Positions 3,669 through 62,075 of a stretch of 64,000 bases of DNA are shown one piece after another (within the stretch, counting starts at the first letter, position 1; each line of letters starts with the position of its first letter). Position numbers and translations under genes: made by a program. The stretch is from the human T2T-CHM13v2.0 reference genome, Homo sapiens. The stretch lies in NCBI RefSeq assembly GCF_009914755.1, contig NC_060930.1; one strand, given 5' to 3'. The notes below the pieces were generated by a model. That model saw nothing but the letters and a program-made list of their open reading frames with translations. It ran no database searches and was not told the DNA's origin.

Positions 3669-4155
3669 TGTGGTGTCTTGCCTAGGTCCCCCTTCCTGGG
3701 TTGTTGCACTTATTCCTCAGCTGCTGGCAATGCTGTTTGCAAATGTATCAGAGCTCCCATCCACCCACCTCCTAACTCCTCATCTCTCCACCCACTGCGC
3801 CCTAAAAATTGCCCTTAGCTATTAGGAGCAAACTAGCCAAGGAGGCTGTGACACTTCTTTCCTCCTTCAGGAATGGTATGTAAACAATGCCTGGAATATA
3901 CAGGGCTATAGAAGTCTAGCTTTCTTGCCTCAAAAGGGAACAACACTCCAGTGGGATTTATATTTCAGACTCCCTACAATACAAATGGATCAGCCCAAGA
4001 CTACACTTTACCCGAGACCACATTCTTGATCACCTCTTTCTTCTTCCCTATCCTGCTTTATGCTCACTCTTAGAGGCACTCCTGAAAACATCTTCCTCAA
4101 TAAAGCTCTAAAAACCCTGGATCAGGCTTTGTTTCTAGGGAAACTGGCTTAAAAT
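3669..4155 (+). mobile_element. ERVL 5' LTR (LTR16 family)
   Basis: Starts TG; ends ...caataaa...caggctttgtttctagggaaactggcttaaaa like the LTR16 3' end; directly followed by ERVL leader (gtggtcttagaaagcagacc). Confidence 0.7.
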
Positions 4156-4715
4156 TCTATCAAAAGTGGTCTTAGAAAGCAGACCTCAAGAATGGCATCC
4201 TGAAGTTAGAAACTTGAGAGCTGGCTTATACCAATGACTTATCACTGGTGGTAGCTTCTGACATGCAGCCACAGTGCAATTGCTAAGGTTATCACTGAGG
4301 TCAACTTGGATGGGATATGGGCAGAAGAAGATGCACTGGTTTGTGCAAAATCTCTGGTGTTGGAGAGGTACAAGAGAAATATAAATTTGAAGGTCTGTGG
4401 AATTCAGAGGCTATTTCTGAATGCCATTGATGTTTCAAAGAGATGAAATAACAGGCTCAGGGCAATCAATCACCAATTTAAAGCCAAGTATGAAAGTCAG
4501 AGGGCCTCTTTGGCAGCTTGTAAACAGACCTTCAGTTCCTACAGCTGGAGGGCAGATGAACTGAAGAACAGGCATAGGACTTAATTATAAAAGTCACAGA
4601 ACTAAAGAGAAAGCATAATTCCCAGCCATGGAAAGTCTTATATGCCAAACTCAGAGTCCTGAAAAGTAAAGAAAAGGGCACTGAAACTTGGGATAGGGTT
4701 ATCTGGGTATATATA

Positions 4716-5585
4716 GAGTAAATCTTCACTTAATGTTATTGATATTTTTTTGGAAATGGTGATTTTGAATAAAATGACACATAATGAAACAAAATTTACC
4801 ATAGACTAATTTATATAAACAAGAGTTAAGTTCCTATGGAATATTTCTGGTCAAAAAAAAATCACCAAACTTCTAAATAAAGACCCCAAACACTCCTAAT
4901 ATTAAACACTGACTTAAGTGTGAGCAGTACACACACTTAAGAAAGATTAATAAAAACACATAAGATAATTCTTTACCCATTTTTTTTTGGTGAATCAGTG
5001 AGTGATGGTGATCATGGTGCAGGTGGGTTAAATGAAGGAATAAATGTTTGCAAAGCAAAAATTGTAAGAGCACCTCTTGCCAGCACACAGTTCAAATGCA
5101 AATAAATATTGTGGGCTCAATGGGCACTTTCTCCCTGCATCATTTATTGTTGTGCATTTGTGTGATTATCATAGACTTGAAGAATTTTTATTTGATAGTA
5201 ATTTGTGTTCCATTCATTCATTTATTTTCCAACCCACTTGTTCCAGTTCAGGGTCAAGTGTGTTAGGAGCCTATGATGGCAGTTGAGGGCAGAAGTAAGA
5301 ACCAGCCCTGGACAGGGCTCCATCCCATCATTGCAGGGCATACTCACACATACACCCATGCACACTCAGACTGCGACAACGTGGACATTCCACTTCACCT
5401 CATGTGTACATCTTTGGGTTGTTGGAGGAAATTGGAGTATCTAGAGGAAATCCATGCAGACATGGAGACAGTGTACAAACTACACAAACAGTGGCTCTGG
5501 CCAGAATGCCAGAATGGATTGCTTTTCTTATCAATGTTACAATACAATGACATCGAATGAAACAATGTTATTTGAGGATCTGCTG
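4716..5585 (-). mobile_element. MER6 non-autonomous Tc1/mariner-Tigger DNA transposon, apparently full length
   Basis: Terminal inverted repeats gagtaaatcttcacttaatg / tgttatttgaggatctgctg, TA on both sides (4714-4715, 5586-5587), ~870 bp, body matches recalled MER6. Confidence 0.9.
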
Positions 5586-6338
5586 TACATGTAATCCTTG
5601 GACTCCCAGATTCCCCTGGAACTTTTGGGTTTGTACAGTGGTCCCCCTTGTTGAAAGATAATGCCTCTGCCACCTCTTGGTTGAAGACTGTGAGAAAACT
5701 CACATGAGGCAGGCAGATGCTTTACAGGATGTTACTAAGTACTTCTGGATCTGCCTCCTACTCCCTTCTTGGTCACATAAACAGCAACTAGGATCACTAT
5801 CTTAGCCTAACACAGTTGAAAAAATGTGGAGCTTCCTAAAGGAGGGGATGGATTATATGCTCAGAGTTGCAAGAATAGCTAACAAGTACAGCAGTAACTA
5901 AGAAAGCATTCTTGAGAGTGGATTCTAAAGGTGTTGGATAAGGATTGTGGGGTAGAATATAAAGTTAAATAAGGGAGAGTATGCTAATATAGGGGGACCC
6001 TCCTGTGATACAAAATTTAACAACCAACAGTAGTTCTAAGACACTCCTTGGGAGTATCTTGGAAGCTTGAAAAGCAATGGCTTACATTTAATATAGTAGA
6101 GATGCTAGATTACTGTGACAGACTGGTGGAAATGACCAAAGGCTCAGCAAAGTGGGCATTCTAGAAAGGATTTATTGTATAAATCTTGAAGACCTGCTTG
6201 CTGATTAACTTTCTTAGAAGAATCTAGTGTATAATACATTTATGAAGGAGACATCATCATTATTTAGAAGCTCATATTGGCTATACTTTGTAGGCTGGAA
6301 CTAGATAGAAGAAAACACTATACAGAATTGGATACCAT

Positions 6339-6685
6339 TGTAAGGTACTCTCCAGCTCTCATATATTTCAGGGATTGCCTCGGCTACAGAGAGCTGCCTG
6401 TCTCATGGTCACTCCCTTTATGGATCGATGCAAGTACAAATGCCTGGTTACTTTGGTCGAATGCAAGATAATTCTGCAGGGCCTTTTTAGCTATCTACGG
6501 AGACATTTATCTGGAAATCCCCATGGAGTTGGACAAGACTGAATTAGAGCTTGAATTATTCTCCCCAATCCTTCTTCCTTCTTCTCCCTTCTACAAGTGT
6601 TGCTCTCAAGAGGACTCCTTAATAAACACTCTGTGTTCTAAATTCCATAACTGAGCCAACTCTTATGGGAACCTAACCTGTGACA
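6339..6685 (+). mobile_element. Solo ERVL LTR (LTR16A/LTR33-like) within the ERVL internal region
   Basis: TG...CA ends; aataaa near 6621; 3' end gggaacctaacctgtgaca. Confidence 0.65.
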
Positions 6686-12809: not shown

Positions 12810-13010
12810 TTTGAGCATTCACAGACTTAGGGTCAAATACTTGTGCTAGAATTTACTCATTTGGTAATTTATTTCAATTCAGTAAATCTCCATCTCCTCA
12901 GATATAAAATAAGTATGATAATATCTACCTTACAGCGTTTTAATGAAGTTTGCATGTGATTAAAGTTTTGCCTGGTACTTGGTGTTATATAAATGGTAGC
13001 TAATAATTTT
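12810..13010 (+). mobile_element. MIR
   Basis: cagacttagggtcaaat...ataatatctacctt...cctggtac...taaatggtagcta. Confidence 0.6.
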
Positions 13011-19490: not shown

Positions 19491-19674
19491 AGACAGCCCT
19501 CTCTACTCCACTCTTTATTTCTTGTGCACAGCTCTGAATATGGAGACATCCACTGCTCTTGGCAGCAATTTCTTACTCCGGTCAATTCAGACTTGCAGAG
19601 CTGACAAAGTTAAACTGACTTTCTTGTCCCTTCTACTAAAGAGACAAATTGGACATGTTTAATAGGTGAATAAA

Positions 19675-20977
<1,303 letters not shown>

Positions 20978-20980
20978 GAT

Positions 20981-23703
20981 GTCAAATCCCTGAATAGACC
21001 AATAACAAGTTCTGAAATTGAGGCAGTAATTAATAGTCTACTAACTAAAAAATGCCCAGGACCAGATGGATTCACAGCCTAATTCTACCAGAGGTACAAA
21101 GAGGAGCTGGAACCATTCCTTCTGAAATTATTCCAAACAATAGAAAAAGAGGGACTCCTCCCTAACTCATTTTATGAGGCCAGCATTATCCTGATACCAA
21201 AACCTGGCAGAGACACAACAAAAAAGGAAAATTTCATGCCAGTATCCCTGATGAATATCAATGCAAAAATCCTCACTAAAATACTGGCAAACCAAGTCCA
21301 GCAGCTCATCATAAAGCTTATCCACCATGATCAAGTCAGCTTCATCCCTAGGATGCAAGTCTGGTTCAACATACACAAATCAATAAACTTAATCCGTCAT
21401 ATAAACAGAACCAATGACAAAAACCACATGATTATCTCAATAGATTCAGAAAACTCCTTGGGTAAAATTCAACACCCTTTCATGCTAAAAATTCTCAATA
21501 AACTAGGTATTGGTGGAATGTGTCTCAAAATAATAGGAGCTATTTATTACAAACCCACAACCAATATCAAACTGAATGGGCAAAAGCTGGAAGCATTCCT
21601 TTTGAAAACCAGCACACGACAAGGATGCCCTCTCTCACCACTCTTATTCAAAATGGTATTGGAAGTTCTGACCAGGGCAATCAGGCAAGAGAAAGAAATA
21701 AAGGGTACTCAAATAGGAAGAGAGGGAGTCAAATTGTCTCTGTTTGCAGATGTTGTGGTTGTATATTTAGAAAACCCCATCATCTCAGCTCAAAATCTCC
21801 TTAAGCTGATGAGCAATTTCAACAAAGTCTCAGGATACAAAATCAATGTGCAAAAATCACAAGCATTCCTATACACCAAAAATCCTGAGTGAACTCCCAT
21901 TCACAATTGCTACAAAGAGAATAAAATACCTAGGAATACAACTTACAAGGGATGTGAAAGACCTCTTCAAGGAGAACTACAAACCACAGCTCAAGGAAAT
22001 AAGAGAGGACACAAACAAATGGAAAAACATACCATGCTCATGGATAGAAAGAATCAGTATCATGAAAATGGCCATACTACCCAAAGTAATTTATAGATTC
22101 AATGCTATCCCCATCAGGCTACCATTGACTTTCTTCACAGAATTAGAAAAAAACTACTTTATATTTCATATGGAACCAAAAAAGAACCCATATAGCCAAG
22201 ACAATCCTAAGCAAAAAGAACAAAGCTGGAGGCATGACACTACCTGACTTCAAACTATACTACAAGACTATAGTAACCAAAACAGCATGGTACTGGTACC
22301 AAAACAGATATATAGACCAGTGGAACAGAACAGAGGACTCAGAAATAATGCCACACGTGTACAACCATCTGATATTTGACAAACCTGACAAAAGCAATGG
22401 GGTAAGGATTCTCTATTGAATAAATGGTGTTGGGAAGAATGGGTAGACATATGCAGAAAACTGAAACTGAACTCCTTCCTTACACCTTATACAAAAATTA
22501 ACTCAAGATGGATTAAATACTTAAATGTAAAGCCTAAAACTATAAAAACCCTAGAAGAAAACCTAGGCCATACTATTCAGGACATACGCATGGGCAAAAA
22601 CTTCATGACTAAAATGGTAAAAGCAATGGCAACACAAGCCAAAGTTGACAAATGGGATCCAATTAAACTAAAGAGCTTCTGCACAGCTAAAGAAACTATC
22701 ACCAGAGTTAACAGGCAGCCCAAATAATTGGAGAAAATTTTTGCAATCTATCCATCTGACAAAGGGCTAATATCCAGAGGCTACAAGGAACTTAAACAAA
22801 TTTACAAGAAACAAACAAGGAACTTAAACAAATTTACAAGAAACAAACAAGCAACCCCATCAAAAAGTGAGTGAAGGATATGAACAGACACTTCTCAAAA
22901 GAAGACATTTATGTGGCCAACAAACATGAAAAAAAAGTTCATCATCACTCATCATTAGAGAAATGCAAATCAAAACCACAATGAGATACCATCTCACGCC
23001 AGTTAGAGTGGTGATCATTAAAAAGTTAGGAAACAACAGATGCTGGAGAGGATGTGGAGAAATAGGAACGCTTTTACACTGTTGGTGGGAGTGTAAATTA
23101 GTTCAACCATTGTGGAAGACAGTGTGGTGATTCCTCAAGGATCTAGAACCAGAAATACCATTTGACCCAGAAATCCCATTACTGGGTATATACCCAAAGG
23201 ATTATAAATCATTGTACTATAAAGACACATGCACACGTATGTTTACTGCAGCACTATTCACAATTGCAAAGACTGGGAAGCAACCCAAATGCCCATCAAT
23301 GATAGACAGGATAAAGAAAGTGTGGCACATATACACTATGGAATACTATATAGCCATAAAAAAGGATGAGTTCATGTCCTTTGCAGGGACATGGATGAAG
23401 CTGGAAACCATCATTCTCAGCAAATTAACACAGGAACAGAAAATCAAAAACCGCATATTCTCACTCATAAGTGGGAGTTGAACAAAGAACACATGGACAC
23501 AGGAAGGGGAACATCACACACTGGGACCGGTTGGGGTTGGGGGTCTAGGGGAGGGATAGCATTAGGAGAAATGCCTAATGTGGATGTTGGGTTGATGGTT
23601 GCAGAAAACCACCATGGCATGTGTATACCTATGTAACAAACCTGCACATACTGCACGTGTATCCCAGAATTTAAAGTATAATACAAAAAAAAAAAGAAAA
23701 AAA
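20981..23703 (+). mobile_element. L1PA (PA5/PA6-like) 3' segment: ORF2 RT and C-terminus, 3'UTR, poly(A)
   Basis: RT motifs [12 protein letters not shown] and LSLFAD in 21236..21892; 3'UTR gggatagcattaggagaaa; A tail; TSD aggtgaataaa at 23704-23714; frameshifted. Confidence 0.95.
22783..22851. repeat. 32-bp perfect tandem duplication inside L1
   Basis: acaaggaacttaaacaaatttacaagaaacaa at 22783-22814 and 22815-22846. Confidence 0.95.
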
Positions 23704-32449: not shown

Positions 32450-32790
32450 GAGGCATTACTGTGCAGTGGATAAGAGTAGATTGTACATGAACCCGGGAGG
32501 CGGAGCTTGCAGTGAGCGGAGATCTGGCCACTGCACTCCAGCCTGGGTGACAGAGCGAGACTCCATCTCAAAAAAAAAAAAAAGAAAAAAAGAATAGATT
32601 GTTTATATTCAAATCACAATCCCACTACTTCCTAGTTGTAAAACCCTGGGTAAGTTACTTAATTTCCTATATATCAATTTTCTCATCTTTAAAATGGGAA
32701 AAATAATGATATATACTTCATTAAGATGCTTATAAAGAAATTAATGTGTTCAGGTTTTAGAGAGTATCTGACACATTAAAAAATGCCATT
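32450..32790 (+). mobile_element. MIR interrupted by an Alu fragment
   Basis: gcagtggataagag...ctgggtaagttacttaa...tctcatctttaaaatggg. Confidence 0.75.
32485..32589 (+). mobile_element. 5'-truncated AluY 3' fragment
   Basis: gaacccgggaggcggagcttgcagtgagc; TSD aagagtagattgt (32472-32484) / aagaatagattgt (32590-32602). Confidence 0.92.
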
Positions 32791-33549: not shown

Positions 33550-33780
33550 GAAAGGCAGTATAATGTAGGGAAATTCACCTTCTTTGGAATCAGATAGATT
33601 TTGAGTATCACCTCTGTCACTCACAAGATGTGGACAGTTGAGACTTATCCTCATCTAAAAATGGGGGAAAGATTGTTCATATAAAAGGAATATTGAAGAT
33701 TAAATAAGATGGCATTTGTTTAGTGTTTACTCAGGGTCTAGAATGTTTTAGGTACCCACTCACAGTAAATTCCCTTCTCT
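33550..33780 (+). mobile_element. MIR
   Basis: ggcagtataatgtagg...tttggaatcagatagat...cctcatctaaaaatgggg. Confidence 0.65.
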
Positions 33781-35854: not shown

Positions 35855-36100
35855 AGGAATAGCATACTTGTTAAGAGCAAAGGATCTGGAATCAGTCAGA
35901 TCTGGGTTTGAATTTAATATCTAATGCTTAATACTTGTCAGTCCTTTGGAAATGTACTTAGTTACTAAGTCTGAAAAATTGAGATAATAACAGTACCAAA
36001 TTCCTAGAGTTGTTCAGAAGATTAAATATGAGAATACACATAAATTGGTCAGCACAGTGGCTACAGCATACATGGAGATATGCAAAGAGTACTTACTATA
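35855..36100 (+). mobile_element. MIR
   Basis: gttaagagca...tctggaatcagtcagatctgggtttgaat...agcacagtggctacagcata. Confidence 0.7.
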
Positions 36101-40460: not shown

Positions 40461-41132
40461 ATTAGACTTTTTAATGGACCCGGTATAGAAGTAGGATGCA
40501 AATCAGAAATGGACATTTATTGAGGATCTACTGTATGACAGGCTCTATGTGAAGTTTTTTTTTCCCACGTAACAACATATGTTATGCTGATAAGCATGCA
40601 AATTTTTATATATTAGTATGATGTAAATAAATATGTAGCTATAAAGATTTTTTAAGGCCAAATTGACGTGGAAGATGCTTTTCTTATCTCATATTTCCAT
40701 AATCCTATTTAATTCAGTCAACTCTTTCCAATCCATCTAGAGTTAATTATCTCTCTCATTAATTGTTTGGGAATTACAAGTTGTGTGAGACGTGGACTCT
40801 CCCCAGTGCTCCCATCAAGCTCTGGCAACCTACAGCTTGTGCTGCTTACACATATTGTTATATTTGCTGACTTCCACCTGTAACAAACTCATCTGGACTC
40901 TTAAAAGTTACCTGTATCTGACCTTTATCCTCACTTTCACCTTTTCTGCCTAACCTTCTCCCTTTTTGTGCACTGGGACTTCCTTGTGTCGAAGACTGAT
41001 CTCTTTAACTGTGTCCTGGTTCTGCCATCCTTGCTCCACCTCTCCTTAACCAGAGACCTGCAGCCAGCCCTTCTCTTCTCTCCCTGCTGCACCTCGACCT
41101 CTCTCTGTCTGCTAGATATTTCCATGATAGGC

Positions 41133-46249: not shown

Positions 46250-46825
<576 letters not shown>

Positions 46826-49701: not shown

Positions 49702-50269
49702 GGCTTGGGGTAAAATCTCTCCCACACAATGCTTGCTGCCCTGACATTCTATAAGGATACTTACTTCTGAAAAACTGTACATTTAAAATTATGTTCTTAT
49801 GTTTATGAATTTGAATATAAATTCAGAATTATTTAATAAGAAAACAAATTGGAGAGGGTTGAATGTTTTTATGTATCCTCTATAAATGAGAAAAAGGACA
49901 TTAATGACACTAATCTTAAAGCACTAAACATGCAAGAATAAGAAATTAAATTCCCTTTAAATTTTATGTTAGAATAATTATCCCCCTCAATGCAATTTGC
50001 CCATGTTTTATTAAAGCTTTATTATGTCAAGGTAAATAGAGGTTAATGCTGCTGTTACTTCTTCCAATGAAGTATTATCTTTAATCTTGCTTTAATAAAA
50101 TAGTGGCAAATTGCACAGTAGGGGTAATCACCATGGGCTAATTTAGAGAGTTGTAAAATCCTTTACCAAGTATATACTGTAGTTAAAAATAGAAGTAGTC
50201 TTAAAAAAACACAAATTGCAATGTAACTTGGAGGAAGTTAAGGAGATTGCTATTCATAATTTCAATTAC

Positions 50270-50740
50270 TTAATTAAATAGATGATTATTGAGTACCTAC
50301 TATGTGCACTGTTCTGGCTGTGTCGAGGGTATGAAAGTATATAAAAATGGACTTTCTCCCTAAGGAGCTTATGATTAACTACTTGGGAAAATACATAAAA
50401 ACAAATCACTATTGACTATGAAGCTTGCCATAGCAGAATTGTGAACATCCCTGCCATGGATTTTTAGAAGAGAGAAAGGTCACTTCAGGCAGAAGATCAA
50501 GAAGAGGTCATCTGAACTGAGTCTTGAAGGATGGTATAAAATGGAAATGTGTCAGAGGAAAGGGAAGGATATTTTAGGTAAGGAAATGGCAAGAGCAAAG
50601 GACTGGGGCCAAAGGGTACCAGATGTCCAATCAATATTTTCTTGCCAGGTTCAATCAGAGCTGAGAGTTGGACTGAAAGACCAGTCAGAGTCTATTACAA
50701 AAAGCCAGTTGAGAAGCAGAGAGGTCTTCTACCATTCTGG
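50270..50740 (-). mobile_element. L2 3' portion
   Basis: ttattgagtacctactatgtgc...tgaactgagtcttgaaggatg...gcaagagcaaagg. Confidence 0.75.
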
Positions 50741-50909
50741 ATTGGACAGCCTTAGCTGGAAAAAAATTTCGCTAGGTATATATAATATATATGAATATGT
50801 GCATATATTTATATATAATATATATAAAATCTCCTACATTACTGAGTTAATATACTATATACATTATTAAACATATGTACAAATAGAAAAAAGGATGCTT
50901 TTTGTTTTT

Positions 50910-53900
50910 TATCTTCACATTTCTTTTATGTATTTTTTAAAATTTTAATTTAATTTAATTTTAAGATCCAGGATACAAGTGCAGGATGTGCAGGTTTGTT
51001 ACATAGGTAAACGTATGCCATGGCGGTTGGCTATACCTATCAACCCTTCACCTAGGTATTAAACTCAGCATGCATTAGCTATTTTTCCTAATGCTCTCCC
51101 CCTCCCCACCCTGCCCCCTGACAAGCCGTCGTGTGTATTGTTCCCCAGCCCTGTGTCCATGTGTTCTCATTGTTCAGCTCTCGCTTGTAAGCGAGAACTT
51201 GGGGTGTTTGGTTTTCTGTTCCTGTGTTAGTTTGCTGAGGATAATGGCTTCCAGCTCCATCCCTGTCCCTTCAAAGGACATGATCTCCTTCCATTTTTAT
51301 GGCTGCATAGTATTCCATGGTGTATATGTACCACATTTTCTTTTTCCAGTCTATCATTGATGGGCATTTGGGTTGATTCCATGTCTCTGGTATTGTGAGT
51401 AGTGCTGTAACGAACATATGCGTGCACATATCTTTATAAAAGAATGGTTTATATTCCTCTGAGTATATACCCAGTAATGGGATTGCTGGGTTAAATGATA
51501 TTTAATTTTATTTCTACCTCTAGGTCTTTGAGGAATAGCCACACTGTCTTCCCGAATGGTTGAGCTAATTTACATTTCCACCAACAGTATAAAAGCATTC
51601 CTGTTTCTCCACAGCCTTGCCAGCATCGGTTGTTTATGGACTTTTTAATAATTGCCATTCTGACTGGCGTGAGATGGTATCTCACTGTGGTTTTGATTTG
51701 CATTTCTCTAATGATCAGCAATGTTGAGCTTTTTTTCACATGTTTTTTGGCTGCATAAGTGTCTTCTTTTGAGAAATGTCTCTTCGTGTTCTTTGCCCAC
51801 TTTTTAATGGAGTTGTTTGTTTTCTTCTTATAAATTTAAGTTCCTTGTAGATGCTGGATATTAAGCCTTTGTCAGATGGATAGATTGCAAAAATTTTCTC
51901 CCATTCTGTAGGTTGCCTGTTCACTCTGATGATAGTTTCTTTTGCTGTACAGAAGCTCTTTAGTTTAATAAGATCCCATTTGTCAATTTTGGCTTTTGTT
52001 GCAGTTGCTTTTGGCATTTTCATTATGAAATCTTTGCCGGTGCCTATGTCCTAAATGGTATTGCTTAGGTTTTCTTCAAGGGTTTTTATAGTTGTGTGTT
52101 TTACATTTAAGTCTTTAATCCATCTTGTTAATTTTTGTGTAAGGTGTAAAGAAGGGGTCCAGTTTCAGTTCTGTGCATAGGCTAGCCTATTCTCCCAGCA
52201 CCATTTATTAAATAGGAAATCCTTTCCCCATTGCTTGTTTTTGTCAGTTTTGTCAAAGATCAGATGGTTGTAGTTGTGTGGTCTTATTTCTGAGATCTCC
52301 ATTCTGTTCCATTGGTCTATGTGTCTGTTTTTGTACCAATACAATGCTGTTTTGGTTACTGTAGCCCTGTAGTATAGTTTGAAGTTGGGTAGCGTGACGC
52401 CTCCAGTTTTTTTTTCTGCTTAGAATTGTCTTGGCTATGTGGGCTCTCTTTTGGTTCCATATGAACTTTAAAGTAGTTTTTTTCTAATTCTAGGTAAAGA
52501 ATATCAGTGATATTTTAATGGGAATCTCATTGAATCTATAAATTACTTTGAGCAGTATGGTCATTTTCATGATATTGATTCTTCTTATCCACGAGCATGG
52601 AATGTCTTTCCATTTGTGTCCTCTCTGATTTCCTTGAGCAGTGGTTTGTAGTTCTCCTTGAAAAGGTCCTTTACTTCCCTTGTTAGCTCTATTCCTATTT
52701 ATTTTATTCTCTTTGCAGCAATTGTGAATGGGAATTAATTCATAATTTGGCTCTCTGCTTGTTTATTGTTGGTATGTAGGAATGCTTGTGATTTTTACAC
52801 ATTGATTTTGTATCCTGAGATTTTGCTGAAGTTGCTTATCAGCTTAAGAAGCTTTTGGGCTGAGATTCTGGGGTTTTCTAGATATAGGACCATGTCATTT
52901 GCAAAGAGTGACAGTTTGACTTTTTCTCGTCCTATTTGAGTACCCGTTCTTTCTTTCTCTGGCCTAGATTGCCCTGGCCAGAACTTCCAACACTATGTTT
53001 AATAGGAGTGGTGACAGACAGCATTTTTGTCTTATGCCAGTTTTCAAGGGGAATGCTTTCAGCTTTTGTCCATTCAGTATGATATTGGCTGTGGGTTTGT
53101 CATAAATGACTGTTACTATTTTGAGGTATGTTCCATCAATACCTTGTTTATTGGGAGTTTTTAACATGAAGGGATGTTCAACTTTATTAAAGACCTTTTC
53201 TGTGTCTATTGAGATAATCATGTGGTTTTTGTCTTTAGTTCTGTTATGTGATGAATTACATTTATGATTTGCATATGTTGAACGAGCCTTGCATCATGGG
53301 GATGAAGCCCACTTGATTGTGGTGGATACGCCTTTTGATGTGCTACTGGATTTGGTTTGCCAGTATCTTATTGAGGATTTCTGCATTAATGTTCATAAGG
53401 GATATTGGCCTAAAGTTTTCTTTTTTTGTTGTATCTCTGCCAGGTTTTGGTATCAGGATGATGCTGGCATCGAAAAATGAGTTAGGGAGGAGTCCATCCT
53501 TTTGAATTGTTTGAAATAGTTTCAGAAGAAATGGTACCAACTCCTCTTTTACCTCTGGTAGAATTCATCTGTAAATCCATCTAGTCCTGGGCATTTTTTG
53601 GTTGGTAAGCTATTTATGACTGCCTCAATTTCAGAACTTGTTATTGATTTATTCAGGGATTCAAATTCTTACTGTTCAGTTTTGGAAGGGTGTATGTTTC
53701 CAGGAATTTATCCTTTTTGTCTAGATTTTCTAGTTTATTTGCATATAGCTGTTTATAGTATTCTCTGATGGTTGTTTGTATTTCTGTGGGGTCCCCTTTA
53801 TCTTTTTTGTGTGTCTATTTGATTCTTCTCTCTTTTCTTCTTTATTAGTCTAGCTAGCAGTCTTTTTTTTTTTTTTTTTTTGAGATGGAGTCTCACTCTA

Positions 53901-54390
53901 TTGTCCAGTCTGGAGGGCAGTGACACGAACTTGGCTCACTGCAACCTTCATCTACTGAGTTCAAGTGATCCTCCTGCCTCAGCCTCCCTAGTAGCTGGGA
54001 CTACAGTTGCATGCCACCATACTCAGCTAATTTTTGTATTTTTAGTAGAGACAGCATTTCACCATGTTGTCTAGGCTGGTCTCGAACTCCTGACCTCAAC
54101 TGATTCGTCTGCCTTGGCCTCCCAAAGTGCTGGGATTACAAGCAAGAGCCACCATGCCCGGCCCATGGTCTATTTTTTTGATTTTTTTCAAAAAATCCAG
54201 CTCCTGGATTTGTTGATTTTCTTTGGAAGGGATTTTGCTGTCTCTATCTTTTTCAGTTCCGCTCTGATCTTGTTTATTTCTTGTCTTCTGCTAGCTTTGG
54301 GGTTTGTTTGCTATTGGTTCTCTAGTTCTCTTAGTTGTGATGTTAGGATGTCAATTTGAGATCTTTCTAACTTTTTGATATGGGCATTTA
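50910..54390 (-). mobile_element. L1PA8/PA10-like 3' 3.1 kb (ORF2 RT to 3'UTR)
   Basis: 3'UTR acctaggtattaa..cagcatgcattagctatt; ORF2 peptides 52964..53221 and 51736..52023; stops abruptly at tgggcattta. Confidence 0.93.
53863..54163 (-). mobile_element. Alu (Jb/Sz-like) inserted into L1
   Basis: T tail, gagatggagtctcactc...accatgcccggcc; L1 resumes at ggtctatttt. Confidence 0.92.
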
Positions 54391-54393
54391 TTT

Positions 54394-54520
54394 ATTAATT
54401 TATGACCATAGTTTTGTTAAGTATAAAATAGGAATAATAGTAACTATATAAATTAATTTGTGCAAATTCAAATGGGAAAACCATGTTTTACATCAGTTCT
54501 ACTGGGATTATAAAGCACAA
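54394..54520. mobile_element. Scrambled MIR pieces at a rearrangement junction (middle piece +, 5' piece -)
   Basis: 54394-54446 resembles MIR core ...agttt...gtataaaataggaataatagtaacta; 54448-54520 resembles antisense MIR 5' part (weak match). Confidence 0.55.
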
Positions 54521-56764
54521 GGATTTAATTATTATGACATAGTAACTTTATAAAATGAAGTAATCAGAGACATTATTTAATTGGAAGGGCATAACTAGGA
54601 TCAACATGGATAAAAGTGCTAAAAGGAAACAAATTCAAATCAACATTATAAGTATAATTCTTATAAGAACAAGTATACATTATAATTCTTAATTATTTTC
54701 ACCCCATGTTCAAAATGAAACATATTAAAAATTATTTCTTGATTTGACCATGAAAAGTAAATGCCTCCCTTTAAGACTTAAGTAATGAATGAATAAGCTA
54801 TTGAAGTTGTCTGTGGATAGTACAAATATTTTAACCCTAATTTGGGAATTACTACATGGTATATATTAAAAAATGTAAATACAGACCCTTCTTTCCCTAA
54901 CTTATCTTTTGTTCAGCACAGCTTGTGCATCTGTACCTCATGATCAATATTTTCCAAGTATACTGTAGTTTTATACAATAATCTTATTAGATCATGGTAT
55001 GTATTTTTAAGCAATACAGTATCTGTAATTTGAATCTAAAGCTTATTTATTTCTCAGGTAAAATATTTCTACTACATAGTGTCGTATAACGCAGAAGTAC
55101 TAGTTTCTAGATTTTTCACCTAATCACCAGTATTCTTACACTGTAACAGTATTTCATGTCTGCAGGTGAATTGTAATTTCCTCAAGGACAGACACCTTAT
55201 TTTCTATACTGTTTTACCATTTTGCATCTTAAAGCAAAATTAGAGACATATTTTCAGTGTTTCTCTAGCATTTTTTCGTTATGGAATGCTCTGGGATATT
55301 CAAGTTTGGGTTGTACAGTGAAGGATGAAAAGAATCAAAATGACTCTCCATTACTCAGGGGTATTTAGAAAAGTCAGGACTACAGCGTGACAGTGAGTTA
55401 TGGGCCCTCTTATCTTGTGTTCTTGCTTAAGAAAAACTATTTAGTGAATGGATCCCACTTTTTTGCATATGAATAGGGTCACAATCATTCATGCAAACAG
55501 AAACATGCCGTCTTTCTTGGTGCTGACTTAGTTTTTCATCAAGCCTCTTCTCTTCTACTTCCAGACATGACATGCACTCTACTGTGTGGCATGATGGGCC
55601 CTTCTCAATAATCTGTGTAAGACAAGTTCATATCTTTTGTTGTAAAAAAATAACCTTTACACACTGATGAAAATGTTGTTGAAACATGGCACATCTTTAA
55701 GTCTCACACACAAGGTGAGAAGCACTACCAATTGACTCTACAAAAGCATAAACCAGAACATAATTTTTGCACTTAAAAACACTAAGACCTGAAATTAGGA
55801 AACTGTAAAACTGCAGAAGCACTCAAACCAACATACAGCTTTACTCTGAGTAATATAAGAGTAGAGGTATTTTAGACCTAATACACAGAGTTCTAGGTGT
55901 AATTCTGTTAAGCAGCTTTACATTTTGCCATTAGAACTATTTCCCCTCTGTGTTAAGCTTTAATATCCTTTCAAATGCATTAATGTGTCACCAGAACAGA
56001 CTCTCACAGACTCCTGGCTGCTTTAAATATTTCCATTTTAATAACAGCTTCAGATCTTCACTCAGAGCTTTATATACCCCTTACTGTCACAGAGGCTTGT
56101 GAAAGACAGAAGGAAACAGCTCATCATCCACAAAAGTCATCCAATGTACAATTGTTTGCTTTAGAATACAACCCACATGAAAATTAAAGGGAAACATAAT
56201 TTACATTTGATTTTCTCTACCCTTTGTGCTCATCTCTGAATACTTCTACAGACATTTTTGAAGTTCCTGTAAGGACGGCTTAAATTCTCTCTTTCTGAAA
56301 GTGACTGTAGTTTCATACTAAAAGAGTTAAGGTCCCTCTCTTAAATCTCAGAAAGGCAGAGTAGAGCCAAATGTTGTTTAGACCTTCATAATGTGAGGTG
56401 TTGCAATCAGATTTGCTATTAAGTAGCATGGGAGCTGAGAGGTAAGGAGTAGCACTTCACCAATGCAGCAGGGTTAAAACGTTTGTGACAGTGGTGATGG
56501 TTCTTCATGTTTGTCTAAAAGGAAAAGTGGGCATTTAATATTTTGTGTAATTTCTGACCTTACCGGTAACCACTGTCATGCTTCAGAGAAAGCCAATAAT
56601 AATTTTGGGATTAAGGAACAGGGATAAGTTAAGGCAAACTAGAAGAAGGTTCCAGATATAATCTTGAAGACCTGCAAAAGTTTTCATTACAAAAATGAAG
56701 ACAAAATTAGAACAGGCTAGAATGACTATGAAGACACAAATAAAATAAGGAGTTGGCGGGGTAG

Positions 56765-57107
<343 letters not shown>

Positions 57108-57189
57108 GGCACATTTTGTACTTTGCTCATATTGTTTATCTATGAGTATTGTGCCATTTAATATTACACCTTCAAAAAATGCGATTTGG

Positions 57190-57491
<302 letters not shown>

Positions 57492-57870
57492 AAAAAATGT
57501 GATTTGCCAAAGATGGTAAACTCTTTGTTCCCTTACTGAATTTTGGTTAATTTATAATTGTTAATGAAAATATGAGGCAAAACTGCATACTCTCAAATGA
57601 TAGTTCACTCTGATCCACCAGAAAGAGGAATAAGAATGAGGCTCAACATTGTGGGACTAGGCTCCAACCTAAGTGAGTGTTTTAAACTAACTTAGTGTGT
57701 TCCTCATTGATGACAATGACCTATTTGAAGTCTTCCCCTCTTCATTACACCCTCAGTGATCCCAAAGGGTCTTATCTAATTTGTTTTCTTTGGTAAACTG
57801 AAAATAACTATGAATTAATTTCACTTTAATTAACACATATCTTTGAACAATTGAGTGTCTCTCTTTATTT

Positions 57871-58042
57871 TTATTATTTATTTATTCATTCATTTATTTA
57901 TTTTTGAGACGGAGTTTCGTTCTTGTTCCCCAGGCTGGAGTGCAATGGGGCCATCTCGGCTCACTGCACCTCTGCCTTCTGGGTTCAAGCAATTCTCCTG
58001 GCTCAGCTTCCCGAGTAGCTGGAATTACAGGCACCTGCCACC
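57871..58042 (-). mobile_element. AluS right arm only (5'-truncated)
   Basis: gagtttcgttcttgtt...aggcacctgccacc; flanks gtctctctttattt / gtctcttttattt. Confidence 0.88.
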
Positions 58043-58219
58043 AGTCTCTTTTATTTTAAATACTAGTTTAGTTTAGTTTGAATGTTTGGTGTATCCAAAC
58101 AATCAAATCAGCAAACAACACCTGAATTCCAAGTGTTAATTTCCAATTGTTTGCCACTTTTCACATTGATATCACACCAGAAACTACAACACAATACATT
58201 CCAAAAAAGTTTAACATTT

Positions 58220-58410
58220 TTACTCGTAATTCCCTGCTCTTCTGTCTCTTTCTGTTACTAACACTTTATTCACCCAGACCCACAGGCTCAAATCCTTGGA
58301 GTTTCCATTGACTTTTCTCAAGCAAAGCTTACATTTTAAGTTTATAATACTTTCTTCCTACTCTTTTATATTCTAATTCTTTCCTGCTCTTATGACTACC
58401 ACTATGGCAG
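58220..58410 (+). mobile_element. L2 fragment
   Basis: attcacccagacccacaggctcaaatccttggagtttccattgac resembles L2 core. Confidence 0.55.
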
Positions 58411-58497
58411 AGGTCCTCAAGGAGCACAAGATAATCTATTAAGGAAGAAAGAAATCATTAGGATTTCTACAAAAACAACAACAACAAAAAATCCTTA

Positions 58498-60289
58498 GGG
58501 GAGGGGCCAAGATGGCTGACTAGAAACAGCTGCAGTCAGATGCTCCCACTGAGAAAAATGAAAATGGCAAGTGAATCCTGCACCAACAACTGAAGTATTA
58601 GGGTCTCTCACTGGGATTGACTAGATGGTTAGCACGACCTATGGAGAGCGAGGAAAAACAGGGTAGAGTGACAGCCTACCCGGAAGCCACACAGGTAAGG
58701 GGAGCTCCCACTTCCCGCCAAGGGAGGCAGTGAGTGAGTGTGCTACCCCACCTGGGAAACCACGTTTTTTTCCATGGATCTGTGCAACCCATGGATCAGG
58801 ACATCTGCCTCGTGAGCCCACGGCACCAGGGCCTTGGGTCCCAAGCACAGAGCTGTGCAGATTCTCAGCGGCCACTCAGCTGCAGACTGCCTAAGACTAG
58901 TGAGTTCCTGGAGTGAAGGGCATCAGTCCTCATTGCCTCTGCCTGCTGCCTAAGATGACTGAGCTCCGCGGGGAAGGGCAGCAGCCATCACTACAGCTCT
59001 AGTCAGCCATTTTTCCCCTGCTGGCGCTGGGGAGACTGAGTAGTTTGGACCCAGGAGGAATTCCTCACAGTGCAGCACAGCAGCTGACAGATGGTGACCA
59101 GACTACCTCTTTAGGCTGGACTCTGACCCATTCCTTCTCACCGGGTGGAGCCTCACTGCAGGAATTTCAGCAACTCCAGCCAGGAGTTCACAGACAGAAC
59201 TCTTGATTTCCCTGGGAAGGAGCCTCAGTGGGGAGGGACGGTCACAGTCTCCAGGGATCAGCAGTCTTAGTCTTTCCTCCTGCTGGCTCTGAGGAATCCA
59301 GGCACTCCCAATGAGAGGAATTCCCCCGAGTGCAGTGTACCCTCACCAAGGGGCAGCCAGAGTGCTTCATTAAGTGGGTCCCTGATACCATGCCTCCTGA
59401 CTGGGTGAGACCCACCAACAGGGGCCACCAGACACCTTACACAGGACCATTCCCGCCAGCATCAGGTTGGTGTCCCTTTGGGACAGAGCTTCCAGAAGAA
59501 GGAGCAGGCAGCCATCTTTGATATTCTGCTGCCTCCACTGGTGACATCGTCAGGTGAAGGAGGGACCCAGCTGAATTGGGTCTGGAGAGAACTCCCAGCA
59601 AACCGCAGCCCTATAGAAGAGGGGCCTGACTGTTAAAATAAAAACAAACAGAAATCAACGACAACAACAGCATCAACAAAAACATTCCCACAAAAACCCT
59701 ATCCAAATGTCAGCAACCTCAAAGATCAAAGCTAGATAAACCCATGAAGATGAGAAAGAAAACTAAAAACACGGAAAACTCAAAAAACCAGAGTGCCTCT
59801 TCTCCAAATGATCATAACACCTCTCCAGCAAAAACTGGGAGGAGGCTGAGATGGATAAATTGACAGAAGAAGCCTTCAGAAGGTGGGTAATAATGAACTT
59901 CACTGAGCTAAAGGAGCTAAGTTCTAACTCAATGCAAAGAAGCTAAGAACTATGATAAAACATTACAGGAGCTGTTAACCAGAATAACCAGTTTAGAGAG
60001 GAACATAAATGACCTGATGGAGCTGAAAAACACAACAGGAGAACTTCGCAATGGAGCCACAAGTATGAATAGTCGAATAAACCAAGGGGAGGAAAGAATT
60101 TCAGAGCTTGAAGGCTACCTTGCTGAAATAAAACAGGCAGACAGGATTAGAAAAAAAAATGAAAAAGAACAAACAAAACCTCTGAAAACTATGTGATTAT
60201 GTAAAAAGACCAAACCTACGACTGATTGGGGTACCTGAAAGAGATGGGGAGAATGGAACCAAGTTGGGAAACATACTTCAGAATATCAT
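58498..60289 (+). mobile_element. L1PA8/PA10-like 5'UTR plus first ~540 nt of ORF1, 3'-truncated
   Basis: Intact 5' terminus gggaggggccaagatggc; ORF1 start at 59750; ORF1 remnants RPNLRLIGVPERDGENGTKL; ends abruptly with no poly(A). Confidence 0.92.
58508..58516 (+). promoter_or_regulatory. YY1 motif of the L1 internal promoter
   Basis: caagatggc at the canonical position near the L1 5' end. Confidence 0.65.
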
Positions 60290-60380
60290 AGTAACTACAT
60301 CACAAGGTTATTGTAAAGATTAAAGAGAATAATATATATTAGTATAAATTACTCAATGTAGGGTGCCAGTTATTATTATT
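60288..60380 (+). mobile_element. MIR 3' part
   Basis: atagtaactacatcacaaggttattgtaaagattaaa...ttattattatt. Confidence 0.7.
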
Positions 60381-60499
60381 AATTTGTAAAACATACATAC
60401 TTTTACCTATCATGATAATCTTGTTTTGTTACAAAAGAAAAATTAAGACAAATGGGAGATAGAAGAAACACAGAAAGTGTAGAACACATAGAAAACATA

Positions 60500-62075
60500 A
60501 AAATAAATGTAAATATATTAAACTCCCCAGTTAAGGAAAAAGATTTTCAGTCTGTTAATATCCAGTTGTATGCACTATATATGCTCAGTGTGTTTACAAG
60601 AGATGCAGTGGAGATTTACAGATAGACAAATATGCAATTCAAAGTAGGGGAAAAGATATAGCAGATAAAGTCTAACTACATGAAGCCTGGTATGAAATAT
60701 TAATTTCAGATCAAATAGAAAACAGATAAAGAGAATCATTTTATGATGACAAAAAATTCAAGTCACAGGCACTCAACAATTTTAATTGTTATGTACTTAA
60801 CAACATAACTTCAAAATAGTAAAGAAAAAATTGGCAGGACTGCAAGATAAATTGAAAGCCTACCTTATTATTGAAATAATTTAAATAATGGAGTAAATGA
60901 TAAATTAGGCAAATAAAATATTAGTAGGATATTAAAATTTGAACTGCCCAAGTACAAGTTCAACCTAGGGGATGGGCATTAAAGTACACCCCCCAACAAC
61001 TGTGACATGTGCATTCTTCTTAAGCACATCTAGAACATTTATGAAAATTGACTATGTGCTAAGCCATAAAAACTAACCTCGACAAATTTCAAAGATTAGT
61101 GTCATGAAGACCACACTCTGCTTGCAATGCAATTGCATTAGTAAAAAACAACAAAAACTACAAAACTCCCAAACATTTGGAAGTTAAAAAGCAAAGCTCC
61201 AAGTAATTTTTAATGAACGTTAGAAAGTATTTACACCTGAATTATTTTAGAAAGTATTTACACCTGAATTATTTTGAAAATACTACATATCAAAACTTTG
61301 GGATATAGCTAAAATGTAATTTAGACCAAAATGTATGGTTCTAAATGCTTTTGTTAGAAATGAAGAAAGTATAAATTTCCAACTTTATAAGTTAGAAAAA
61401 AGAACAATAGAAAAAAGATTGGAGAAAAGAATTGCAATAAAAGCAGAAATCAATATTATAGAAAATAAATATTTACTAGAAAGGTTTAACAAAGCATTTT
61501 TAAAAAATGAATAAAATAGGCCAACTTTAGCAAAATTGTCAAATAAGAAGAGGTGCTCCTTGTAACAAAATAATATTTAGTATGGAAACGGGGGTATAAC
61601 TACAGACATAGGAGATATTAAAATAACTTAAGATGCTAATCAATAATTTTATATCAATAAATTTACAAGCATTTTAAGATACATTTATCAAACTAGTTCA
61701 AGAGAAGTCAGTACAAGAAAGAAATAAGCAGATTACTCCTGGAAATAGATGCAGAAATCCTAAGCAAATCAAATCCTGTAATGTATAAAAACCACACATT
61801 AAAGGCATTTTGTGTTTGTCCAAAAATACATAATTTAATATTAGAAAATCAATTAGTGTAATTAAAATAGCAGCATATTAAGGAAGATAAATTACAAGAT
61901 TATGTCTTCAGATACAAAAAAAGCATTTGGTAAGATTCAATAAAACAGAAACTATTAGCAAGTGAAGAAGAAAAGAAACTTCCTAACATTGATACAGTCT
62001 ATAAAAGCCCAAAGCAAATATTATATATGCTTAATGAGAAAATATTGAAAGCACTGTCTTTAAGATAAAAACAAA
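60500..62075 (+). mobile_element. Highly decayed L1M ORF2
   Basis: aaatgtaaat...aaactccccagtta (endonuclease start), acatttatgaaaattgactatgtgctaagccataaaa, aaagcatttggtaagattcaa. Confidence 0.75.
61220..61273. repeat. 27-bp perfect tandem duplication
   Basis: ttagaaagtatttacacctgaattatt at 61220-61246 and 61247-61273. Confidence 0.95.

What the first reader, a model, noticed from the sequence alone, without database searches (positions are those of the whole stretch)
50891..60297. Hidden ~5.8-kb inversion that split one full-length L1 and a MIR
Seen: (a) a minus-strand L1PA 3' part ends abruptly at 54390, and a plus-strand L1PA 5'UTR plus half of ORF1, of similar age, ends abruptly at 60289 with no poly(A), which normal retrotransposition does not produce. 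(b) The flanks match as an inverted TSD: aacaaaaaatcctt (58483-58496) versus the reverse complement of 50891-50906, aacaaaaagcatcctt (2-nt indel). (c) A MIR is cut at the same points, with its 3' part at 60288 and its 5' part antisense at 54448. (d) Flipping the segment makes the L2 piece at 58220-58410 co-oriented and collinear with the L2 at 50270-50740. Inference: one full-length minus-strand L1 inserted, then 54447-60287 was inverted with loss of roughly 1.4-1.5 kb of L1 (rest of ORF1 and the endonuclease region). The breakpoints are non-homologous. Repeat annotation would list these as unrelated fragments.
Basis: partly seen in the sequence, partly recalled or inferred. Interest (0 to 1): 0.85.

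Follow-up and report, generated by a model that had tools for sequence, protein, structure and literature searches.

The report
Old L1 split by local inversion
One ancient full-length L1 retrotransposon was broken, and its front end plus about 4 kb of neighbouring DNA now lies flipped inside a split MIR-like repeat; this is an ordinary kind of small rearrangement in a gene desert.

Summary
The core observation holds. A minus-strand L1 3' part (about 50910-54403) and a plus-strand L1 5' part (58498-60289) both end abruptly. They do not overlap in L1 coordinates (gap about 1,435-1,440 nt). Their coding parts are equally diverged from the same 15 reference copies. Their outer flanks carry a 14-of-16 matching target-site duplication in inverted orientation (chance about 1%). 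The 4 kb between them is single-copy in the genome, which argues against 5' transduction. No inverted repeat joins the two breakpoints, which argues against homologous recombination. A textbook twin-priming L1 elsewhere in the window looks quite different.

The MIR claim is only half right. A profile built from 17 genomic copies shows one MIR-like element split at 54446/54447 and 60287/60288. Both halves point the same way, both lie outside the block, and they overlap by a 10-nt direct repeat. A plain two-break inversion does not predict this.

My reading is a three-junction rearrangement after a full-length L1 insertion: about 1.4 kb of L1 lost, a 5.84-kb block reinserted inverted, and a 43-nt MIR island left at the left junction.

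The L2 claim could not be tested, and no outgroup genome was available. Known kind; interest low to moderate.

The parts
50891..50909 (-). Target-site duplication copy next to the short A-rich tail of the L1 3' end
   Evidence: Its reverse complement aligns to 58480-58496 with one 2-nt gap. 2 of 165 non-cognate pairs score as high.
50910..54403 (-). L1 3' part, about L1 positions 6432 down to 3231 in reference L034. It is interrupted by a later Alu.
   Evidence: blastn against 15 L1 copies; RVT_1 at 52967-53293 on the minus strand; end of homology from MAFFT.
53860..54165 (-). Alu inserted into the L1 3' part
   Evidence: Metazoa_SRP/Alu-type Rfam matches on the minus strand; Alu-to-Alu blastn hits.
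54404..54446 (+). 43-nt island at the left junction: a MIR-like fragment in the same orientation as the part at 60288 onward. Strand is given relative to my profile.
   Evidence: Profile nodes 94-134 match 54409-54446 (6.5 bits, E 8.8e-4 in a 501-nt search). 82% identity to chrX copy L049, with 0 of 300 shuffles as good. The repeat does not continue past 54446 (-4.4 bits).
54437..54446 (+). Left copy of the 10-nt direct repeat ATAGTAACTA
   Evidence: Exact match to 60288-60297. About 1% of random AT-rich 60-mer pairs share a 10-mer (2,034 of 197,156).
54447..58479 (.). Non-L1 part of the inverted block. It is single-copy DNA with later Alus at about 56800-57106 (-), 57189-57490 (+) and 57895-58045 (-).
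   Evidence: Only self-hits in the whole genome for 55000-56700, 58060-58482 and 54469-54999. Alu matches.
58480..58496 (+). Target-site duplication copy directly upstream of the L1 5' terminus
   Evidence: L1 homology starts at 58498 in 6 of 15 references and within 12 nt of it in all 15.
58498..60289 (+). L1 5' part: a 5'UTR of about 1.25 kb plus the first 0.55 kb of ORF1 (L1 positions 1-1795 in L034)
   Evidence: Pfam Transposase_22 positions 1-29 of 98, E 8.5e-10.
60288..60338 (+). Right copy of the 10-mer and the continuation of the same MIR-like element
   Evidence: Profile nodes 122-175 match 60285-60338, E 4.8e-4 over the whole window. The in-register continuation scores +17.2 bits.

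Best explanation
A full-length L1 inserted on the minus strand tens of millions of years ago and made the duplication AACAAAAA(GC)ATCCTT. Later, one local DNA-level rearrangement with three new junctions reshaped it. (1) The L1 was broken, and about 1.44 kb of it was lost (the rest of ORF1 and the endonuclease region). (2) The block holding the L1 5' 1.8 kb, its duplication copy and about 4.0 kb of flank was turned round. (3) That block was rejoined inside a neighbouring MIR-like repeat, 43 nt to the right of where the L1 3' part now ends, with an 8-10-nt duplication (ATAGTAACTA) at that site. The likely mechanisms are end joining of three nearby double-strand breaks, one of them staggered, or replication template switching. 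Shown here: the L1 geometry, the equal divergence, the inverted duplication, the split co-oriented MIR-like element, and the lack of homology between breakpoints. Inferred: the order of events, the repair pathway and the age.
For: The L1 pieces are complementary and opposite in orientation: 6432 to 3231 on minus and 1 to 1795 on plus in L034 coordinates. Their ends are sharp against 15 references. Divergence is equal: the ORF1 part of the plus piece has median identity 87.0% (n=15), and the ORF2 parts of the minus piece 86.0% (n=9) and 87.1% (n=11) to the same references. References chosen through the 5' piece match the 3' piece as well as the genome-wide best hits do, at 80-85% (40 of 25,721 candidates scored). 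The inverted duplication has a chance of about 1.2%. One MIR-like element is split into nodes 94-134 and 122-175 in the same orientation with a 10-nt overlap. The block DNA is single-copy. Among the 25 longest of 37 inverted-repeat pairs, none joins the two breakpoints.
Against: No outgroup or pre-rearrangement state was seen, so the orientation change is inferred from repeat anatomy alone. The left MIR-like hit is weak: 6.5 bits, and not reported in the whole-window scan at E up to 10. One genomic copy (L049) aligns on to 54468, across the proposed junction. I read that as a selection effect of picking the best of very many copies, but it could mean two separate MIR-like elements. The 10-mer has about 1% chance and I noticed it post hoc. 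ATAGTAACT also occurs at 54539 and 14034. The duplication includes an A-rich stretch that cannot be told from the poly(A) tail. The positive controls failed.
Confidence: 0.6

Rival explanations
1. Single-event origin: the inversion arose during the L1 retrotransposition itself. The double-strand-break ends made by ORF2p were resected and remodelled, or a second cDNA was primed from a nearby break. The flanking DNA and the L1 5' part were then ligated back inverted.
For: Passages of bioRxiv 10.1101/2024.12.14.628481 report L1 insertions with inversion of adjacent genomic DNA in cell clones and cancer genomes. Examples are a 917-bp inversion and one inverted 3,275-bp stretch that includes both L1 and genomic DNA. 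They also report a duplication-like overlap between the primary and the reciprocal breakpoints, which is the topology of the inverted duplication seen here. The L1 gap would then simply be RNA that was never copied.
Against: The duplication copy sits exactly at L1 position 1. That is what a completed ordinary full-length insertion gives. A one-step route needs a full-length cDNA joined normally and then two more breaks. I found no one-step path that leaves the 43-nt MIR-like island un-inverted. The paper's examples carry no second L1 piece at the far end of the inverted DNA.
Confidence: 0.15
2. Plain two-break inversion of about 54404-60289. The MIR-like stretch at 54409-54468 is a separate element that belongs to the inverted block. 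The shared 10-mer only reflects common family descent.
For: The chrX copy L049 aligns at 82% over 54412-54468, across 54446/54447. This is the simplest break count. The 10-mer has about 1% background probability.
Against: The profile alignment stops at node 134, which is 54446. The in-register continuation scores -4.4 bits, and 15% of AT-rich controls do as well, whereas the continuation at 60298 scores +17.2 bits. The node ranges of the two parts abut with exactly the 10-nt overlap and share orientation. Undoing such an inversion would place two truncated MIR-like pieces tail to tail.
Confidence: 0.12
3. One retrotransposition by twin priming of a read-through L1 RNA that carried about 4 kb of 5'-transduced upstream sequence.
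For: The order of the pieces resembles a 5'-inverted insertion: 3' part, then upstream DNA plus L1 5' part in the opposite sense. A 10-nt direct repeat flanks the block.
Against: No source paralogue exists. 55000-56700, 58060-58482 and 54469-54999 hit only themselves in the 3.1-Gb genome. The L1 coordinates leave a gap of about 1,435 nt, whereas twin-priming cDNAs normally abut or overlap (median 12 bp, passages of PMC12016303). The twin-priming L1 in this same window overlaps by about 7 nt. The 10-nt repeat does not enclose the poly(A)-bearing part. The duplication next to L1 position 1 matches the one at the poly(A) end.
Confidence: 0.04
4. Two unrelated L1 fragments: an ordinary 5'-truncated minus-strand insertion, plus a plus-strand full-length L1 that later lost its 3' 4.6 kb by deletion.
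For: L1 fragments are very common. No direct test of common origin exists.
Against: This needs several coincidences: equal divergence, non-overlapping L1 coordinates, opposite orientation, and a 1.2% duplication match. It also needs the 5' fragment's deletion point to fall in the same MIR-like element that abuts the other fragment. No direct duplication was found for the minus piece; the best alignment of 50870-50925 against 54385-54450 scores 15, near the null mean of 11.9.
Confidence: 0.06

Closest known systems
Small evolutionary inversions with non-homologous breakpoints and breakpoint deletions or duplications (end joining or template switching)
   Same: A kilobase-scale inverted block. 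No homology between the breakpoints. Loss of about 1.4 kb at one junction. A short duplicated or retained stretch at another.
   Different: The inversion is recognised here without an outgroup, because it split a full-length L1 and left its duplication copies in inverted orientation. There are three junctions rather than two.
Twin-priming 5'-inverted L1 insertions (Ostertag and Kazazian 2001, cited; not read)
   Same: Two parts of one L1 lie in opposite orientation, with the poly(A)-bearing part non-inverted.
   Different: The parts are 4.1 kb apart rather than abutting. There is a gap of about 1,435 nt instead of an overlap of about 12 bp. The inner end of the inverted part is L1 position 1 with a duplication copy. 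The window's own twin-priming L1 (19663-20975 and 20985-23678) shows the normal pattern.
L1 insertion-coupled local inversion of genomic DNA (bioRxiv 10.1101/2024.12.14.628481, passages read)
   Same: A poly(A)-bearing truncated L1 is followed by inverted flanking DNA. The far end of that DNA carries the duplication-like overlap.
   Different: Here a complete L1 5' end follows the inverted duplication copy, and an un-inverted 43-nt island precedes the block. The reported cases are somatic or experimental; this one is fixed in a germline reference.
Retrotransposon recombination-mediated inversions (L1-L1 or Alu-Alu; recalled, not read here)
   Same: An L1 lies at an inversion breakpoint.
   Different: Those need two inverted homologous copies at the two breakpoints and leave both copies chimeric but whole. 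Here the partners are an L1 and a MIR-like repeat with no homology.

Membership tests
Post-insertion inversion splitting one L1 | Two L1 parts in opposite orientation with non-overlapping, complementary L1 coordinates | tested here: met
   6432 to 3231 on minus and 1 to 1795 on plus in L034 coordinates. Sharp ends against 15 references.
Post-insertion inversion splitting one L1 | Both parts of the same age and subfamily | tested here: met
   Median identity to the same references is 87.0% for ORF1 and 86.0% and 87.1% for ORF2. Genome-wide best hits to the 3' part are 80-85%. The subfamily name was not determined, because no Dfam or RepeatMasker was available.
Post-insertion inversion splitting one L1 | Target-site duplication copies in inverted orientation at the poly(A) end and at the L1 5' terminus | tested here: met
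   Score 22; 2 of 165 non-cognate pairs reach it. Part of the match is A-rich.
Post-insertion inversion splitting one L1 | Outgroup genomes show the block in the opposite orientation | not testable with these tools
   Only the window's own genome is held.
Simple two-break inversion | A second split marker has its inner half inverted at the opposite end of the block | tested here: not met
   The MIR-like halves at 54409-54446 and 60285-60338 are co-oriented and both lie outside the block. There is no minus-strand profile hit in 54300-54800.
Twin-priming 5'-inverted L1 | The inverted and non-inverted cDNAs abut, and their L1 coordinates meet or overlap by a few to tens of bp | tested here: not met
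   4.1 kb of non-L1 DNA lies between them, with a gap of about 1,435 nt. The norm is a median overlap of 12 bp (PMC12016303 passages).
L1 5' transduction | The transduced DNA has a source paralogue next to a progenitor L1 | tested here: not met
   Only self-hits for three stretches of the block. A lost source cannot be excluded.
Inversion by homologous recombination between inverted repeats | Inverted homologous repeats at the two breakpoints | tested here: not met
   37 inverted pairs were found in 50700-60600. The 25 longest are Alu/poly(A)-based or lie away from the junctions.
MIR (mammalian-wide interspersed repeat) | Significant match of the junction fragments to a family profile | tested here: inconclusive
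   The profile came from 17 dispersed genomic copies of the element found. The right part has E 4.8e-4 window-wide. The left part scores 6.5 bits and is significant only locally. That this family is MIR is my recollection; no named library was available.
   Only self-hits. No L2 model is held.

The most novel reading that the evidence does not exclude
The flip was made in one step by the L1 retrotransposition machinery itself, through remodelling of ORF2p-induced break ends with a second break 4 kb away. This locus would then be a germline-fixed, tens-of-millions-of-years-old example of the L1-coupled genomic inversions so far documented in cell models and tumours. Its inverted target-site duplication would be a signature that can be searched genome-wide.
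Probability: 0.15. Interest if true: 0.55.

Novelty: new member of a known kind. Interest (0 to 1): 0.3.

Why it matters
The practical lesson is that old small inversions can be recognised from a single genome. The signs are a retrotransposon's two halves in opposite orientation with their target-site duplication copies inverted. A second split repeat can then show that the event had more than two junctions. Repeat annotation would list these pieces as unrelated. A genome-wide scan for such pairs could count ancient micro-rearrangements and test how many are coupled to L1 integration. The locus itself lies in a gene desert, with no annotated gene in the window. The nearest RefSeq enhancer feature ends at 50722, outside the rearranged block, so no functional effect is indicated.

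Tried and rejected
- Pfam on whole frames failed because of stop codons, so I used stop-free fragments. Of 17 fragments, 2 gave L1 domains, 1 gave only sub-threshold coiled-coil matches and 14 gave nothing.
- Self-comparison of the junctions and the putative L2 pieces, by blastn with word size 7 and by single-sequence nhmmer, gave nothing usable.
- Rfam at E up to 10 over 50000-61000 gave only Alu/SRP-type and Alu-derived miRNA matches. Nothing bore on MIR or L2.
- 5' transduction was rejected on single-copy evidence.
- Homologous recombination between inverted repeats was rejected.
- Ordinary twin priming was rejected on geometry.
- A direct duplication for an independent 5'-truncated insertion was not found.
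- I considered retrocopying of an antisense transcript into the MIR and rejected it. There is no T-run at 54447, no canonical polyadenylation signal near the would-be RNA 3' end, and a poor endonuclease site (read).
- A gapped 45-nt direct similarity between 54410-54455 and 60306-60351 (1 of 500 shuffles as good) is in a different register from the 10-mer. I attribute it to AT-rich MIR-like sequence and leave it unexplained.
- Literature searches (listings only, apart from the two papers read in passages) found no description of this locus. They did not search by coordinate.
Full report
**The region.** I read 50200-61000 directly. A T-rich tract at about 50899-50910 is followed by antisense L1 sequence up to about 54400. 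Then comes AT-rich non-L1 DNA with three Alu copies. At 58497/58498 an L1 5' terminus begins on the plus strand. It runs through a 5'UTR of about 1.25 kb into ORF1 and stops at 60289 with no A-run.

**Are the two pieces L1, and where do they end?** Of 17 stop-free frame fragments, two gave L1 domains.
- Window 60186-60320 matches positions 1-29 of the 98-position L1 ORF1 RBD-like domain (E 8.5e-10). ORF1 is therefore cut early in that domain.
- 52967-53293 on the minus strand matches RVT_1 (E 2.6e-9).

The window's own genome could be searched. The 5' piece found many L1 copies at 77-84% identity (40 of 7,433 candidates scored). I fetched 15 that cover its whole length, extended to 7 kb. Results against these:
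- The plus piece starts at 58498-58510 in 15 of 15. It ends at 60289 (12), 60290 (1), 60258 (1) or 60261 (1).
- The minus piece reaches the left junction in 13 of 15, ending at 54376 (1), 54389 (4), 54390 (3) or 54401 (5). Two references have no alignment there.
- A MAFFT alignment of the junction with 12 references shows plausible L1 homology to about 54403-54405.

In reference L034 the minus piece covers L1 positions 6432 to 3231 and the plus piece 1 to 1795, a gap of 1,435 nt. In L044 the gap is 1,440 nt. The left L1 end is about 13 nt further right than stated.

**Same element?** Median ungapped identity to the same references:

| Region | Piece | Median identity | n |
|---|---|---|---|
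| ORF1 | plus | 87.0% | 15 |
| ORF2, first part | minus | 86.0% | 9 |
| ORF2, second part | minus | 87.1% | 11 |
| 5'UTR | plus | 80.3% | 15 |
| 3'UTR | minus | 83.3% | 11 |

A genome-wide search with the 3' end gave best hits of 80-85% (40 of 25,721 candidates scored). So the references chosen through the 5' piece are as close to the 3' piece as anything found. Both pieces are consistent with one subfamily and one age. A pairwise identity of about 87% between copies implies several per cent divergence per copy, which I take to mean tens of millions of years (inference). I could not name the subfamily.

**Target-site duplication.** The 30 nt upstream of the L1 5' terminus and the 80 nt beyond the L1 3' end, read in L1 sense, align as AACAACAAAAA--ATCCTT against AAAAACAAAAAGCATCCTT, score 22.
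- The match ends exactly at the L1 start.
- Among 165 non-cognate combinations of flanks and tails from the other L1 copies, 2 reach that score (1.2%).
- The references' own duplications scored only 10-20, because I located their ends roughly. The test's power was therefore not demonstrated.
- Part of the match is A-rich and merges with the very short tail.

Point (b) holds with moderate significance.

**What it is not.**
- *Ordinary twin priming.* The same window holds a textbook case. 19663-20975 is L1 3668 to 2363 on the minus strand and 20985-23678 is L1 3661 to 6412 on the plus strand. The parts abut and their L1 coordinates overlap by about 7 nt. Passages of PMC12016303 give a median cDNA overlap of 12 bp and 5' inversions in 18-22% of L1 insertions. 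The finding instead has a 1.4-kb gap, 4.1 kb of host DNA between the parts, and L1 position 1 with a duplication copy at the inner end.
- *5' transduction.* 55000-56700, 58060-58482 and 54469-54999 match only themselves in the 3.1-Gb genome. The left flank 50260-50745 is also single-copy.
- *Recombination between inverted repeats.* Among 37 inverted pairs in 50700-60600, the 25 longest are Alu or poly(A) based, or lie away from the junctions.

**The MIR claim.** No repeat library was available, so I built a reference from the genome.
- The search with 54391-54999 gave one extra hit, a chrX locus (L049), at 82% over 54412-54468. In one search, 0 of 300 shuffles scored as well.
- That element has at least 39 further dispersed matches at 69-90% identity (40 of 64 candidates scored). 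It is therefore an interspersed repeat. From recollection it is MIR.
- I fetched 16 of the longer copies, aligned them with L049 and built a 244-node nhmmer profile.
- The profile finds nine places in the window. One is the right junction: nodes 122-175 at 60285-60338, plus orientation, E 4.8e-4.
- In a sensitive scan of 54300-54800 it finds nodes 94-134 at 54409-54446, in the same orientation. This hit is weak (6.5 bits, E 8.8e-4 for that 501-nt search). There is no minus-strand hit.
- An in-register extension test separates the two junctions. The sequence after 54446 scores -4.4 bits against nodes 135 onward, and 15% of 2,578 AT-rich control positions do as well. The sequence after 60297 scores +17.2 bits.
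- The two parts overlap by nodes 125-134. This is the exact 10-mer ATAGTAACTA at 54437-54446 and 60288-60297. About 1.0% of random AT-rich 60-mer pairs share a 10-mer (2,034 of 197,156).

But both halves are co-oriented and lie outside the block, like the flanks of an insertion with a 10-nt duplication.

Three things count against this reading.
- The left hit is weak.
- L049 aligns 22 nt further, across 54446/54447. I attribute this to having picked the best of very many copies.
- ATAGTAACT also occurs at 54539 and 14034.

**What follows.** The L1 evidence says the block 54447-60287 carries the 5' end of the same L1 in the opposite sense. The MIR-like evidence says the block sits between two co-oriented halves of one repeat.

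Together these require three new adjacencies:
1. L1 (position about 3231) joined to the MIR-like island at 54403/54404.
2. The island joined to the block at 54446/54447.
3. L1 (position 1795) joined to the MIR-like continuation at 60287-60289, where 2-5 nt are shared.

The simplest history has two steps. First, a normal full-length insertion. Second, one local rearrangement in which the segment holding L1 1-1795, the duplication copy and the 4-kb flank was freed, turned and rejoined 43 nt further right at a staggered break. About 1.44 kb of L1 was lost, and probably the upstream part of the MIR-like element too.

Three closely spaced breaks repaired by end joining would give this result. So would serial template switching during replication. 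I cannot tell the two apart.

**Single-event rival.** Passages of bioRxiv 10.1101/2024.12.14.628481 show that L1 integration can itself invert adjacent genomic DNA. The duplication-like overlap then ends up inverted at the far end. One example is 917 bp. In another, the inverted 3,275 bp includes L1 sequence. That topology resembles this locus. However, the complete L1 5' end joined precisely to the duplication copy is what a finished normal insertion gives. I also found no one-step path that leaves the 43-nt island un-inverted. I give this rival 0.15.

**Not tested.**
- The L2 collinearity argument (d). Both pieces gave only self-hits.
- Outgroup orientation, the decisive test. No other primate genome is held.

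**Verdict.** This is a real, correctly spotted structural feature of a known kind. It lies in a gene desert with no sign of function. Interest is low to moderate. The main value is methodological.

Noticed in passing
window 19663-23678: A textbook twin-priming (5'-inverted) L1. 19663-20975 is L1 positions about 3668 to 2363 on the minus strand. It is followed 10 nt later by 20985-23678, L1 positions about 3661 to 6412 on the plus strand. The L1 coordinates overlap by about 7 nt.
   Followed up: partly
window 56800-57106 and 57189-57490: Two full-length Alu copies in inverted orientation, only about 82 nt apart. One 58-nt arm pair is 95% complementary. Closely spaced inverted Alus are known to be unstable and to form editable hairpins if transcribed (recalled).
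   Followed up: no
window 54412-54468 and L049 (G000:C23:77180563-77180618): The MIR-like fragment at the left junction is 82% identical over 57 nt to one chrX copy, with 19-nt and 11-nt exact runs. This is far closer than the 69-77% typical of the other long copies. It may be a selection effect, a shared subfamily or something else.
   Followed up: partly
window 60651-60857: Another old interspersed repeat just right of the finding. It has five dispersed genomic matches at 71-85% identity. The family was not identified.
   Followed up: no
window 46264-46424, 32603-32780, 12862-12982, 35970-36082, 33648-33762, 46754-46811, 40509-40560: Further copies of the same MIR-like family, detected by the profile built here (E 1.8e-24 to 1.6e-3). 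The pair 46264-46424 and 46754-46811 flanks the masked stretch 46399-46756. It may be one element split by a later Alu.
   Followed up: no
window 54410-54455 versus 60306-60351: A gapped 45-nt direct similarity of about 75%, with 1 of 500 shuffles as good. It is in a different register from the 10-mer repeat. Unexplained; possibly low-complexity AT-rich sequence.
   Followed up: partly
window 50770-50830: An AT/TATA-rich microsatellite lies between the putative L2 piece and the L1 insertion site.
   Followed up: no
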